Assembly (NCBI RefSeq): GCF_006345805.1
Contig: NC_043008.1
Location: forward strand, 24,862,001 to 24,926,000
Direction of reading: 5' to 3'
DNA from: Octopus sinensis
Taxonomy: Eukaryota
Length of the DNA: 64,000 nt
This document shows, piece by piece, positions 3,795 to 61,765 of the stretch. The notes beneath the pieces were generated by a model that worked only from the letters and a program-made list of their open reading frames with translations, was not told the DNA's origin and ran no database searches. Positions within the stretch are counted from its first letter, which is position 1. Each line of letters opens with the position of its first letter. Made by a program: the position numbers and the translations under genes.

Positions 3795-4507
3795 CCTTTT
3801 ATCATTAATTAATAAATTTTAGGGTAGCAAAACATTTTTAGAAAAATTCGCTACCAGTGGTCTAGCGAGAAGGAAAAAATAGTCTATATAAATTACATTT
3901 AAACACATAAGATACGACCATAATAGGACATCTGACTCACTAGAAAGAGCAGTTAAACTCCAAACCACTAACTGGAGTTTAACTGCTCTTTCTAGTGAGT
4001 TAGATCTCCTATTATGGTCGTCTCTTATGTGTTTAGATGTATATTATATAGTTTATTGACTACTTTTTCCTTCTCGCTAGACGAGAGGTAGAGGAGAATT
4101 TTTCTAAATTTTTTTTTGCTACCCTAAGATTTATTACTTTATTAATAAAAGGACTTTTTGGCTAATTTTGAAAGAAAATCGGCAGTTATATTTACTGCTG
4201 AAAAACCGGGCGTGTGTGGTGGATTTTGAAAAGTTACAGCATATAGACTCGAGGCATGGTTCTTATCGCCTTGTGCCTATATGTTAGCCTTGGCATCCGC
4301 TGAAGATGACAACGCCAATTGTAAAGTAAAATAATTTTATTTTATTTACAAAAGATTGCTGAAATTATGCATAGTCCTGGAAAGATAGGGTAAACGTTTT
4401 TATTTCTCTTTCCCTTTCAGAATTACAACTATTAGTGGTTTGGAGTTTAACTGCTCTTTCTAGTGAGTTAGATGTTCTATTATGGTCGTCTTTTATGTGT
4501 TTAAATA
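3795..4507 (+). mobile_element. Non-coding element: inverted arm + ~470-bp unit + partial direct repeat, with hammerhead-like motif (Penelope pLTR-like layout)
   Basis: Palindrome 3795-4152 centred ~3967; right-arm start tggagtttaactgctctttctagtgag recurs at ~4441; CTGAAGA 4300 and GAAA-ttatgcatagtc 4361-4376. Confidence 0.6.
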
Positions 4508-4810
4508 TATATATATATATATATATATATATATATATATATATATATATATATATATATATATATATATATATATATATATATATATATATATATTATA
4601 TATATATATATATACTAGCAGCATAGCCCGGGAATGTAAGAAACTTTGTCGATAAGCAATGCCCTTTACCTTTTTACCCTTTTTCGTACTCATTGAACCG
4701 GTTATTTTGTAAAATGTAGCCTAAAAGGCATTAAGGCATTCAAGTCACCGTTCCCTTGCATGCATGAAGAACATCTATGACAGTTAAAGTGCGTTTTCTG
4801 GTTTTGTTTA

Positions 4811-4876
4811 GCACACCCAACCCAGTTATGCGGGATCAGTGTCGCACACCCAACCCAGTTATGCGGGATCAGTGTC
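4811..4876. repeat. Perfect 33-bp tandem duplication
   Basis: gcacacccaacccagttatgcgggatcagtgtc x2. Confidence 0.95.
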
Positions 4877-4969
4877 GCGACGGGAACGCATGGGTTGGGA
4901 GTTTGACAGGCAGAGGTGATAAGGTTGAATATGCTGGCCCTTTCGACCCGCACCCCCGAATGATATCCT

Positions 4970-5577
4970 GACGTTGGTTGATACTCTCAAGTCGAGTGCG
5001 CCGTGCCTCAGCAGATTGAGTGCGCGTGCGACAGCGGTAACAGTGGCATCCCTTGAAAGCCTTTCTGCTCTCGCCTCAGCACTCTCTGAAGCCCTAGCAG
5101 AAGCAGTGTTAATGGCATATCTGGATGTCCGAATAGTTCGTTGGTCTGGAGTTTCGGCAGATCGAACCATGGCTGTGTTTGCGACGTCAGCAGCTTAGTG
5201 AGTTCTCTTCTGTTGTAGGGTTTTGACAGATCGTGTCCTGGCGGTGCTAGCGGCGTTAGCCGCTTTCCGAATTGTCCTTTGTTCGTGGTTCTCGCGAGCT
5301 CTGCGGATGGAAGCACAGGAAGAAGCCCGCATGTTTTGGCTGGACTGTTGCTCTTTCGTCAACCTCGAGCGGAGGGAAGATCTGTACGCTGCGGCCCTTG
5401 CAAGTCGGGTAGAACGGTCGCTAGTAGTTTCAGATGCCTGAGCAGCGGCAGAACGGGAAGCTTTTGCGAGAGGCGCAAGGCGGTTTCCTCGTGGGTCTCG
5501 CGTGCCCTTCTAGCCCTAGCAGCCGATGCCTTGGCCGTCCGAGGGCTGAGGAGGGTCCTTCTCTTCTTGGGTGGCAT
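4970..5577 (-). pseudogene. Helitron RepHel N-terminal fragment with 23-aa STPR-like repeats
   Basis: MPPKKRR start, then repeats ETHEE/ETTSD/LTKEQ/ENHEQ/KTLQQ/ETPDQ/ESAEA at 23-aa spacing across one frameshift (~5462) and one stop. Confidence 0.65.
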
Positions 5578-7012
5578 TTTGGTGGATATCAATGTGTTTG
5601 GCAAAGTTGTAATAAAAAGGAGCACGCGGGGTGAGTATCTCAAAATGTATAAAAATGTACAAAAACGGAAAAAAAGCGGACAGCAATGTGAGTGACAACA
5701 ACGAAAAAGCGAAAAGTGACCAAACTGAACAAACGAATGGGAAAGGTTTTTTAGTGCACACGACAAAAGCGGCTTATAATAAACCAAGAGTTTGCAAGTA
5801 GCGTACGAGGACCCTTAGGGTTCGTCAAAAATTTCAGGTAAAACGTTTGGGGTGGTAGTTATAAAGAAAGTTTAAACAAAAAAGTATTCGAATAACTTGC
5901 GGCTGCAGCAGCGATTAGCAGAAGAAGGCCAACGTGTGAAGCGAGCGGGTGTGAACCGAGAGAAGAAGTGGGAGTCACAAACTATACGCACACAACTGAG
6001 TGTGTCAGTGCATGTGATTGGCCAAAGGGTGTTTAATTGAGAGTATTGTTCACCGTTTGGGGAGCCAATGGGAAGAGCTGCAATCATCGTGTCAAGGACA
6101 CGCGCGCACGTGCGCACACAACCGCAAACGCATCTACAGCCCAACATTGCTCGAATTTGAAGATAAAAGGTAAACGTATGCCATTTCTAGTAACCTTTAT
6201 GACAAAAGCGGCAAAAATCGACTAAATCGCCTGAAATCCGACAACTATTTAACAAAAGTCAGTTTTGTAGGGTTCGCATGGTCGGCCTCAAAGTTATATG
6301 ATTTTGTCGATTTCTCCCAATACTTGTTAACTGCATTGACAAAAGGTCGTTAGTTTGACATTCAATGCAAACTTGATGTCCAACATCGGTGTAGGGAAAA
6401 TCTATGTGAACTTTCAAAAAATATCGCAGAAAAATCGGTTTGCTATATGTGCCACATATGATGTAATTGACATATTTTTTCCAGTAATAACGTATCCTAT
6501 TGGAATCAAAAGAGCCATATAGCTCCTTGGAGCAGACAGGATGATCGCTGTGAATTTCAAAAAATATTCCTGCCAATTTGTTAAAGATATTGTCGAAAAC
6601 ATGTCATCTTGAATTTGAAGGCGATTTCCCAAAATGGAATGATTTTATCGATTTTTTCTGATGGTAAGGTATTGCATGGAAAACTAACGTAAGAATTAAG
6701 TTCCTTAGGGTAACATTAAGCTTCACCATGAGTTTGGTGAAAATCGAATGCAAGTTGCGAAAACTACAATGGAAAATGTGTTGCATATGATAAGCTTAGA
6801 TTCTCGACCCCATGTCGAATTTATCGAGTTTTTCAGAACTGGGGGAACTTTTCAAAATTTTCGCTGCGATAGTTTTGAATTATGACATTGGGCTATGTGT
6901 GTCAAGTTTCATCAGAATCGGTTGAAAGCCGTGGTCAGGGTGAGGGTACAACCTGACAGATACACACACAGACAGACAAACTGCCTTTTATATATATAGA
7001 TATATATATATA

Positions 7013-7093
7013 TACTTTATTTAAAAGCAGCAGAAATTCAGCAAAACCTGTTTCTCGGAGTTTCACGTTCCCATTCGTCGGACAGTTTTGTTA
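7013..7093 (-). repeat. Short dispersed repeat with variant hammerhead-like core
   Basis: Minus: aaaactgt-CCGACGA-atgggaacgt-GAAA-ctccgaga-a-acaggtttt; related copy on + at ~42415-42487. Confidence 0.55.
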
Positions 7094-7179
7094 ATATATA
7101 TATATGTGTGTGTGTGTGTGTGTGTGTGTGTGTGTCTATTATTCTTATGGTATTATTAATTTGCATATTGATGCATATT

Positions 7180-59796: not shown

Positions 59797-60290
59797 TATC
59801 ACCATCGGTAAAGGTATCAAGCAAAGAGATACCACATCTCCAAAGCTCTATCTAGAAAGGGCCATCAACGACATCCATAACGAGCAACTAACACACATCC
59901 GATTCGCAGATGACTTTGTACTCGTCGCTGAAACTAGAGAGATCAGCTGCTGGTCATGCTGATGGAACTGGACACTGAGAACTTAGCAGTAGGTTTTAAA
60001 ATGAACCACACAAAGACAAAACATATGTAGACCGGAAGACGTAAAACAAAACCAAATAGAGAGTGGAAATGATGTCAAAGAGGAAGTAATGGAGTACGTC
60101 TGCTTAGGACCCACCGTGAATATGCACCAAGATATGGACGCTGAAATCGCAATTGAATAAGGCCAGGATGGGAGGAATTTAACGCAATAAAGGATGTGCT
60201 CTAAACAAAGATAGACAATAGCACCGTCCAACGGGCACTCTTATACGCAAGTGAGGTGTGGGCTACAATGATGATGATATAATAACAATT
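59797..60290 (+). mobile_element. Degenerate LINE RT fragment (RTE-like)
   Basis: KGIKQRDTTSPKLY..LTHIRFADDFVL. Confidence 0.75.
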
Positions 60291-60439
60291 GGATACGACG
60301 CGACTTAGTCAAGCAATTTAGGTCAAGATGGAAAAGAATGGCACATCAAGCCAAAATTGGAATCGCATTGTGACCAACGCTGAATAATAGTATTTGATGG
60401 TCTGTGACTGTGATATATATATATATATATATATCATCA

Positions 60440-61194
60440 CATCCAGTTTCAGCTCACGAGCTGTGGCCATGCCGGGGCACCGCCATTTGTTGTTGCTACA
60501 TGATTTTACTTCGCGAATGTTTTTTAGAAATTGACATTTGGTGCATGAGAGAATTTGATGCAGCTGCCCTCATCTACACCTCCTGCCGCGAAATTGCTTC
60601 ATCTGGGACACCTGACAGGAAGAGGTCCAGCTTTATATTCAAGATACCTACATCCACCCCATGCAGGTCTCTCAGGTCTTTCGGGAGACTATTGAAGAGC
60701 TGTGGATCTCTGAAGCCCAAGCTATCACAGTATCTTGTCCTACATCTTGATGACAAATTTGGAGTTCTTGCCATTATGCAGTGGCGCCCTGTTCTAGTAT
60801 TTGTGTAACTCTCGATGCCAAAGTTTGGGACAATTCCTTCCAGGATCTTTCAGATGTATATTATGGCATATCTTTCTCGCCTACGCTCTAAGGAATAGAG
60901 TCTTAATCTCTTGAGTCTTTCCCAATAGCTTATATGCTGCATAGAGGCTATCTTCTTCGTGAAGCTTCGTTGGATTGCCTCAAGTTCTGAGATTAATTTG
61001 ACACTGGTTTGTGACCATAGGTGAGAGCAATAGCCAAAGTGGCTTAGGACAAGTGTCCTCCAGAGGTCCATCGTGGTTTCCTGGTCTCTTGTTCTAAAAG
61101 TTCTAAGAATCCATCCGCTCAGCCGCCTACATTTCATTGCCAATTTAGTAACATGCACATGAAAGGTTGCATCATTACTCATGTAAATACCCAC
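60440..61194 (-). mobile_element. CR1-group LINE 3' fragment
   Basis: GWILRTF..LEAIQRSFTK..SYWERLKRLRLYSLERRRER; PQLFNSLPKDLR. Confidence 0.85.
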
Positions 61195-61302
61195 CCCACA
61201 TATATATATATATATGCATGTTGCTAAATTGGCAATATATATATATATATTTCGTTTTGGGATTTGGTTTGCAAGATTCTTTATATGTGTTGAAGCATAT
61301 TC

Positions 61303-61577
61303 TGTTGTGTCTCTGGAGAGTCATTTTCTTTTTGTGCCTTATAATGTAACAGACTCGCCGGTAAAATTTCCACTTATTTCTTATTTTTATTATGTTTGTG
61401 TGCACCATCAAACAAAGGGGAACGCAGTGTAAATAACGGAGAGAGATTATTGAAAAGGTTGCAAGACGCAACGAAAATTTTAGGAAAATAAATATAAGAA
61501 ATAAGTGGAAATTTTACCGGTGAGTGTGTTAAATCATAAGGCACAAAAAGAAAATGACTCTCCTCAGACACCACAGT
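61303..61577. repeat. Inverted repeat, ~85-bp arms, ~100-bp spacer
   Basis: gagagtcattttctttttgtgcctta..ccggtaaaatttccacttatttctta and its reverse complement. Confidence 0.9.
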
Positions 61578-61637
61578 ATATATATATATATATATATATA
61601 TATATATATATATAATATATATATATATATATATATA

Positions 61638-61765
61638 TAAATGTAATGTGTGACAATTATTAAATGGCCGGATAACTGAAGAGATGGCAGCGTGGTTGTC
61701 CAGTTCGGCATCCGAAACTCGAAGTTTTATCATGGCTTCCGAATAATTGTCACATATTACATTTA
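61638..61765 (+). ncRNA. Type I hammerhead motif enclosed in a long hairpin
   Basis: gataa-CTGAAGA(61676)-gatg..catcc-GAA(61714)-ACTcgaAGT-T-ttatc; flanks taaatgtaatgtgtgacaattatt / aataattgtcacatattacattta. Confidence 0.68.

What the first reader, a model, noticed from the sequence alone, without database searches (positions are those of the whole stretch)
4294..61765. About a dozen type I hammerhead-like motifs from several unrelated repeats in 64 kb
Seen: CUGANGA-stem II-GAA-A..U-H-stem I topology at 4300(+), 8966(-), 9803(+), 19784(-), 19964(+), 21653(-), 22693(+), 42127(+), 42694(-), 58723(-), 59585(-), 61676(+), plus variant cores at 7042(-) and 58421(+). Stems differ between families, yet stem III is nearly always palindromic or nearly so (ACGU, ACGAUCGU, ACACGUGU, ACAGCUGU). 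Established: minimal type I hammerheads with palindromic stem III occur in Penelope-like elements and retrozymes and can cleave as dimers. Inference: this genome carries a large, diverse set of non-coding ribozyme retroposons, plausibly mobilised by PLEs (remnants at 15850-17150 and 30990-31335). I cannot confirm how much of this is already catalogued.
Basis: partly seen in the sequence, partly recalled or inferred. Interest (0 to 1): 0.85.

Follow-up and report, generated by a model that had tools for sequence, protein, structure and literature searches.

The report
Hammerhead ribozymes of Penelope-type retroelements
These are real hammerhead-ribozyme motifs carried by eleven repeat families, likely all Penelope-type jumping genes or non-coding passengers of them, an arrangement already known in many animals; most copies here are mutated and RNA cutting is predicted, not tested.

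Summary
All 14 sites have type I hammerhead layout. They belong to 11 repeat families (12 insertions) in a 2.72-Gb, likely octopus, genome. Ten families were searched and gave 85-4930 candidate copies each. Motif counts exceed shuffles (3 vs 0.05; 6 vs 0.67). Stem III is self-complementary in every family. About five window copies look intact; the rest are decayed.

Families B (58804) and D (58426) are 5'-truncated 3' ends of protein-coding Penelope-like elements (PLEs). G and L are sister non-coding units of about 450-470 nt, retrozyme-like. Family A has a tRNA-like Pol III head, an (AAT)n tract and a minimal hammerhead, and inserts with PLE hallmarks (inverted copy, one-sided 33-nt tail). 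The others are unresolved.

Abundant, diverse hammerheads in PLE ends are published (Cervera 2014), so this is a new member of a known kind. The freshest lead is family A, a likely PLE-mobilised SINE; no partner PLE was found. Cleavage and expression were not tested, and within-family covariation was not above shuffles.

The parts
3810..4510 (+). Family L insertion: inverted 5'-truncated copy (about 3810-3972) plus a 468-nt non-coding unit with a 70-nt terminal repeat, between (TA)n tracts
4294..4382 (+). Family L hammerhead, decayed copy. Family: stem I UUCCUG/CAGGAA, extra U after A9, stem II GGCAA/UUGCC, stem III ACUAUGCAUAGU, H17=C
   Evidence: (1036 candidates)
7043..7089 (-). Family I hammerhead-like motif with CCGACGA core (U4C); U16.1 lost in this copy; tentative
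   Evidence: 3 copies, two of them in the window
8966..9049 (-). Family C hammerhead, intact core, 59-nt stem II region, stem III ACGAUCGU
   Evidence: (2409 candidates)
9799..9925 (+). Family F hammerhead, 100-nt stem II region; stem III ACAGCUGU in 12 of 13 aligned copies, changed here
   Evidence: (691 candidates)
14621..14692 (-).
15850..17150 (-). Degraded PLE-like RT/GIY-YIG remnant; not tied to a hammerhead family
19785..19863 (-). Family E hammerhead (old family), H17=G here; left arm of an inverted pair
   Evidence: (85 candidates)
19959..20041 (+). Family E hammerhead, stem III mutated; right arm of the inverted pair
21566..21892 (-). Family A element: 5'-truncated tRNA-like head, (AAT)n, hammerhead at 21653-21698, 33-nt terminal tail
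21886..22790 (+). Inverted partner copy of family A without the tail; hammerhead at 22688-22733 (stem II closing pairs broken); a LINE 3' fragment (about 22060-22620) sits in its (AAT)n
   Evidence: (4930 candidates)
30990..31335 (+). Degraded GIY-YIG endonuclease remnant of PLE type (motifs recalled); no hammerhead seen by eye in the following 560 nt
42124..42212 (+). Family J hammerhead, G8A in this copy. Family: core CUGACGA, 14-bp stem II, stem III ACGAUCGU
   Evidence: (201 candidates)
42608..42753 (-). Family A 3' fragment; hammerhead at 42660-42705 with stem I broken
58421..58458 (+). Family D minimal hammerhead, core CUGUGGA (A6U); 3' end of a coding PLE
   Evidence: (1475 candidates)
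58660..59305 (-). Family B: about 645-nt non-coding 3' end of a young coding PLE; intact hammerhead at 58723-58811, stem III ACACGUGU
   Evidence: (539 candidates, 40 of 40 scored 100% identical)
59350..59767 (-). Family G non-coding unit (447-nt period), 5'-truncated; hammerhead at 59585-59656 with A15.1G here; family stem III ACCGUCGGU
   Evidence: (886 candidates)
61671..61731 (+). Family H hammerhead, near intact; family stem III ACUCGGAGU; a short inverted 3' piece lies just upstream
   Evidence: (1269 candidates)

Best explanation
The motifs are type I hammerheads near the 3' ends of eleven dispersed repeat families: two families are shown to be truncated ends of coding Penelope-like elements, three are non-coding elements likely moved by PLE enzymes, and six are likely PLE-type but unresolved. 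Target-primed reverse transcription would start at the RNA 3' end and usually stop early (inferred). This leaves short solo or head-to-head inverted fragments that keep the hammerhead, which explains the density. The palindromic stem III is predicted to form mainly between two hammerheads, so multimeric transcripts would be cut to unit length and single copies spared. Most genomic copies then decay.
For: B: an RT frame with YRDD (646 aa) and a frame ending in a GIY-YIG-like domain (545 aa) lie upstream of the identical hammerhead, with inverted and same-strand (3.6 kb) pairs. Its relatives are mostly about 700-aa proteins, many with PF26215/PF28514 (127 hits; atlas 0.95-0.98). D: 9 of 19 non-self loci of an RT/GIY-YIG family carry the D motif downstream on the same strand. 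L and G: head-to-tail terminal repeats with 468- and 447-nt periods and no long ORF listed. They are homologous; read by eye, stem I pairs switch A-U/G-C and C-G/U-A and a stem III pair C-G/U-A. A: two opposite-strand hammerheads in 9 of 20 loci; the 33-nt tail occurs once in 8 of those 9 and twice in none, matching the PLE structure in PMC8557442 section 6. Variable 5' ends and (TA)n at the 3' end in B, C, D, G, H, L. PMC4209133 reports the same features, including many families per genome, an extra base after A9, opposite-strand pairs and palindromic helix III.
Against: No partner PLE was found for A, G or L, and no coding region was linked to C (up to 931 nt shared upstream, no long frame in 5 copies), E, F, H, I or J. 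Pfam gave no meaningful hit on the B proteins, and B and D RTs did not align significantly, so the PLE call rests on motifs, relatives and structure. Within-family covariation was not above shuffles in E and J. None of 17 monomer folds gave the full three-stem junction; a loop-less stem III cannot form in a monomer model. D has A6U, and E and G have a purine mismatch at 10.1/11.1, which may lower activity. No cleavage or expression data.
Confidence: 0.85

Rival explanations
1. All families are non-coding ribozyme retroposons (retrozymes) spreading through circular RNAs.
For: G and L are closed non-coding units with head-to-tail repeats. PMC7229834 and bioRxiv 10.64898/2026.07.22.740005 describe such units and propose PLE mobilisation.
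Against: B and D continue upstream into coding PLEs. No multi-unit hammerhead array lies in the window (periods up to 500), and copies are mostly solo or inverted.
Confidence: 0.1
2. The hammerhead fold is kept mainly as a recognition structure or promoter element for the PLE enzyme and cuts little or not at all.
For: D amplified widely with A6U (20 window-type copies among 84 loci; A6 changes lower activity, PMC3088659 passage on A6C). PMC4209133 found low in vitro activity. A would lose its 3' end if a monomer cut.
Against: Apart from A6U in D and a tentative U4C in I, the catalytic core and the UH site are kept across the families while the stems change. Relatives of D keep A6.
Confidence: 0.2
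3. The motifs are chance matches in an AT-rich, repeat-rich window.
For: Loose descriptors are only mildly enriched, and 1 of 3 strict-pattern hits in the 200-kb sample lacked the stems.
Against: The strict tests exceed all 100 shuffles. Family alignments restore pairing at sites where the window copy is broken.
Confidence: 0.02

Closest known systems
Minimal and small-palindrome type I hammerheads of metazoan Penelope-like elements (Cervera & De la Pena 2014, PMC4209133)
   Same: Type I layout, palindromic stem III, extra base between A9 and 10.1 (A, D, L), many families per genome, mostly solo truncated copies, opposite-strand pairs, location in PLE ends (B, D).
   Different: Several families have very long stem II regions (55-100 nt) and palindromes of 8-12 nt. 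Core variants A6U (D) and possibly U4C (I), and an A-purine mismatch at 10.1/11.1 (E, G), were not seen in the text read; figures and supplements were not seen.
Non-LTR retrozymes / non-autonomous PLE derivatives (PMC7229834; bioRxiv 10.64898/2026.07.22.740005; MRC1-type elements in PMC8557442)
   Same: G and L are non-coding units of about 450-470 nt with a type I hammerhead and head-to-tail repeats.
   Different: Seen as monomers, partial tandems and inverted insertions in (TA)n, not long arrays. Circular RNA not tested.
Schistosome Sm-alpha / Sj-alpha SINE-like hammerhead elements (as summarised in PMC6765202)
   Same: Family A pairs a Pol III-type head with a hammerhead.
   Different: Those occur as tandem repeats; A is dispersed, has a minimal loop-less hammerhead, and shows PLE-type inverted copies with a one-sided tail.
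Octopus tRNA-derived SINEs of Ohshima & Okada 1994 (title seen in reference lists only)
   Same: tRNA-derived retroposons of the same animal group.

Membership tests
Type I hammerhead ribozyme | Core CUGANGA...GAAA...UH with three stems | tested here: met
   Family alignments for A, B, C, E, F, G, H, J, L; D with A6U; I tentative
Type I hammerhead ribozyme | Enrichment over shuffled sequence | tested here: met
Type I hammerhead ribozyme | Compensatory changes in stems | tested here: inconclusive
   Not above shuffles within E and J; three double changes between sister families G and L read by eye
Type I hammerhead ribozyme | Match to Rfam hammerhead models | tested here: inconclusive
   None among the 150 of 197 rows shown for the window; none at gathering score in 6 family A loci; minimal forms may fall outside the models
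Type I hammerhead ribozyme | Self-cleavage after H17 | not testable with these tools
   Needs an in vitro assay; only contigs could be laid
EN+ Penelope-like element (families B, D) | RT followed by a C-terminal GIY-YIG domain | tested here: met
   Frames in L082/L084 and L002/L149; motif names recalled; copies seen have frame breaks
EN+ Penelope-like element (families B, D) | Hammerhead near the 3' end, 5' truncation, tandem or inverted copies | tested here: met
EN+ Penelope-like element (families B, D) | Clade placement by RT phylogeny | not tested
   No tree built; script machine lost
EN+ Penelope-like element (families C, E, F, H, I, J) | Upstream PLE ORF | tested here: inconclusive
   Fetched copies of C and H too short or non-coding; F pair L145 held LINE frames only; E, I, J upstream not examined
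Non-LTR retrozyme (families G, L) | Short non-coding unit with a type I hammerhead | tested here: met
Non-LTR retrozyme (families G, L) | At least two tandem units, each with a hammerhead | tested here: inconclusive
   G: same-strand pairs in L103/L105 (447 nt) and L107; L: partial tandems only
Non-LTR retrozyme (families G, L) | Circular RNA | not testable with these tools
   No raw RNA reads available
tRNA-derived SINE (family A) | Internal Pol III A and B boxes in a tRNA-like head | tested here: inconclusive
   Both boxes visible with tRNA-like spacing in alignment A3 (box consensus recalled); ARAGORN 0 of 17 loci, no tRNA in Rfam scans, phage blastn no match
tRNA-derived SINE (family A) | 3' tail shared with an autonomous partner | tested here: inconclusive
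   The one PLE family tested ends in the D motif; partner unknown
tRNA-derived SINE (family A) | LINE-type target-site duplications | not tested
   Not examined; PLE-type inversions seen instead

The most novel reading that the evidence does not exclude
Family A is a tRNA-headed, Pol III-driven SINE that is copied by a Penelope-like element rather than a LINE, using a minimal hammerhead tail taken from a PLE. It would be a SINE-PLE partnership, with at least thousands of copies, that my searches did not find described. The same genome would also hold a natural library of hammerheads with 55-100-nt stem II inserts and a fixed A6U core.
Probability: 0.4. Interest if true: 0.62.

Novelty: new member of a known kind. 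Interest (0 to 1): 0.38.

Why it matters
It extends the known hammerhead-PLE association to what is likely an octopus genome. A 200-kb sample held 5 true motifs for three narrow patterns, roughly 70,000 genome-wide (Poisson range about 22,000-160,000, hand calculation). Two things are usable. Family B is young, with many identical copies and near-intact frames, so it suits tests of what the hammerhead does in PLE retrotransposition, which PMC8557442 calls unclear. Family A would show that SINEs can ride on PLE machinery. Otherwise this is repeat annotation of a described class.

Tried and rejected
The Rfam scan of the window was swamped by microsatellite-driven miRNA hits; no hammerhead among the 150 of 197 rows shown. 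My first descriptor lacked the extra base after A9 and found only 2 sites. The repeat finder on the whole window was dominated by simple repeats. The idea that the PLE fragment next to an A tail in L002 is A's partner was rejected: that family ends in the D motif in 9 of 19 loci, and an A motif appears in 1 of 19 (L163, opposite strand to the RT match). The idea that 14681 belongs to the 15850-17150 remnant could not be tested, as the remnant matched only itself. An antisense ORF upstream of family C was rejected (longest frames 28-87 aa in 5 copies). The same-strand and inverted pairs fetched as L146 and L147 were not analysed. tRNA origin of the A head got no tool support. Sequencing runs: no RNA holder listed; laying four contig sets gave nothing on cleavage. 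Monomer folding z-scores ranged from +0.93 to -3.15. No earlier scan notes exist for this genome. The paper on dimer cleavage of PLE hammerheads (PMC5785218) is not held. Families I and the 14681 candidate got no genome search; TSDs, RT phylogeny and a genome-wide descriptor scan were not done.
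Full report
Setting. The window is G000:C12:24862001-24926000 of a 2.72-Gb assembly, 35% G+C and full of microsatellites. The only relative found for one repeat-encoded protein is named from Octopus sinensis (66% identity over 57%), so the host is likely an octopus.

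Is the pattern real? A descriptor for type I hammerheads was run against 100 dinucleotide shuffles made in 1-kb blocks. With stems I and II of at least 3 pairs, a strict core and loop-less palindromic stem III gave 3 hits against 0.05, and a one-mismatch core gave 6 against 0.67, with no shuffle as high. The loosest settings were weak (5 vs 1.74; 44 vs 32.5). Two plain patterns gave 3 vs 0.03 and 2 vs 0.02. Only 4 of the 14 listed sites pass the strict descriptor, so I tested the sites through their families.

Families. Ten searches of the genome gave these first-look candidate counts (lower bounds; 40 scored each): A 4930, B 539 (24), C 2409 (25), D 1475 (26), H 1269 (34), G 886 (35), E 85 (37), F 691 (38), J 201 (63), L 1036 (81). 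I fetched 15-20 loci per family. Alignments restore the fold where the window copy is broken. Stem III is ACGU in A and D, ACACGUGU in B, ACGAUCGU in C and J, ACAGCUGU in E and F, ACCGUCGGU in G, ACUCGGAGU in H and ACUAUGCAUAGU in L. Stem I differs in each family and still pairs. The site at 7042 is best read as a CCGACGA-core variant, from three copies only. The 14 sites are 11 families and 12 insertions. Copies at 9046, 21693, 58426, 58804 and probably 61676 look intact; the rest carry changes in the core, the cleavage site or the stems. Within E (16 rows) and J (14 rows) about 92% of cells pair, but covariation is not above shuffles, as expected for copies decaying after insertion. G and L are homologous over much of their length, and between them two stem I pairs and one stem III pair change on both sides (read by eye).

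What carries them. B: all 40 scored copies are 100% identical over 211 nt. Upstream lie a 646-aa RT frame and a 545-aa frame ending in a GIY-YIG-like domain, about 620 nt before the hammerhead. Pfam gave no meaningful hit, but 127 relatives, mostly about 700 aa and many with PF26215/PF28514, were found (atlas). The window holds only the last 645 nt or so. D: a second RT/GIY-YIG family carries the D motif downstream on the same strand in 9 of 19 non-self loci; L149 shows endonuclease, about 600 nt of C-rich sequence, then the hammerhead. D's core is CUGUGGA or CUGUUGA, while related motifs keep A6. L: the window holds a whole insertion, an inverted truncated copy followed by a 468-nt unit with a 70-nt terminal repeat, between (TA)n tracts, with no ORF of 100 aa. 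G has a 447-nt period with head-to-tail repeats and no long ORF. C shares up to 931 nt upstream with no long frame. E, F, H, I and J remain unassigned.

Family A. It is a head of about 75 nt with A- and B-box-like motifs (consensus recalled), then (AAT)n, about 55 nt, a minimal hammerhead with an extra A, and about 100 nt ending in a 33-nt tail. tRNA finders did not recognise the head. All 17 loci with the head pattern also hold a hammerhead or tail match. Nine of 20 loci have two hammerheads on opposite strands; the tail occurs once in 8 of them, is absent in 1, and never occurs twice. PMC8557442 (section 6 read) gives an inverted 5'-truncated copy and a 30-40-bp tail at one end as PLE hallmarks. 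The window's 21566-22790 block is one such insertion, interrupted by a LINE fragment. No partner PLE was found.

Density. Twenty 10-kb stretches that I picked at round coordinates gave 6 hits for three patterns. One of the three inspected lacked stems, leaving 5 motifs in 4 insertions. The same patterns give 6 in the 64-kb window, so the window is three to four times richer than the sample. A hand extrapolation gives about 70,000 motifs genome-wide (range about 22,000-160,000), a rough figure.

Mechanism. Shown: fold, family membership, coding link for B and D, unit structure for G and L, insertion structure for A. Inferred: copying from the RNA 3' end with early stops, which leaves hammerhead-bearing fragments; pairing of palindromic stem III between two hammerheads so that multimers are cut; use of PLE enzymes by A, G and L. 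Untested: cleavage, transcription, circles. Contig-only runs could not address these.

What is known. PMC4209133 (parts 1-2 of 4 read: abstract, results, discussion; figures and supplements not seen) reports thousands of such motifs per animal genome, many families, solo and opposite-strand copies, palindromic helix III, and low dimer-dependent activity. PMC7229834 (passages and Discussion) and bioRxiv 10.64898/2026.07.22.740005 (part 1 of 5 and passages) cover retrozymes and their PLE origin. PMC6765202 (passages) describes schistosome Pol III SINE-like elements with hammerheads. PMC3088659 (passages) lists natural core variants; A6U does not occur in its text. PMC13282606 (passages) counts 31 recently active Penelope-like families in Octopus vulgaris and does not use the word ribozyme. 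PMC10886601, PMC4824008 and PMC3531059 (passages) gave only citations of octopus SINEs. Six searches (listings only) showed no paper on octopus hammerheads or on a tRNA-headed SINE moved by a PLE. The library lacks most subscription journals and the repeat databases, and unseen supplements may list these families.

Verdict. Real, largely explained, a new member of a known kind; interest 0.38. The best open lead is family A as a PLE-mobilised SINE (probability 0.4, interest 0.62 if true).

Noticed in passing
window 44733-47714 (+): Near full-length LINE with endonuclease and RT in several broken frames (RVT_1 hit); looks RTE-like (label recalled).
   Followed up: partly
window 22060-22620 (+), 32103-33206 (-); L145, L012, L018: LINE 3' fragments (Dong/R4-like, label recalled) sit repeatedly in (AAT)n tracts, including the tract inside family A, so A offers them a target.
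   Followed up: partly
window 28176-30660 (+) and 56760-57250 (-): Related degraded frames resembling LTR-retrotransposon gag/integrase (label recalled); observed only.
   Followed up: no
window 18619-18954 (-), 60850-61320 (-), 4859-5814 (-): Frames resembling a mariner transposase, a CR1-type LINE end and a Helitron-like protein (labels recalled).
   Followed up: no
window 12197-13155 and 61856-62137: Long near-perfect inverted repeats (257 nt at 95%, 136 nt at 97%), possibly MITEs or further inverted insertions.
   Followed up: no
L203:9033-9110 (-), L214:9695-9735 (+), L018:2535, L023:394, L069:596, L063, L072: Further hammerhead families not in the window, with stem III ACAUAUGU, ACGUACGU, ACAAUUGU, and UUGAUAA (U3-A8) cores.
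   Followed up: partly
L008:1770-1800, L017:2620-2700, L019:1380-1420: Inversion junctions of family A fall at short shared sequence between the head start and the reversed tail, suggesting template switching.
   Followed up: partly
L084 (family B protein): A long low-complexity insert lies between RT and endonuclease; the database names a related protein 'myb-like protein I', likely a mis-annotation of a PLE frame.
   Followed up: no
window 827-1490: A direct duplication of about 320 nt made of microsatellite-rich sequence.
   Followed up: no
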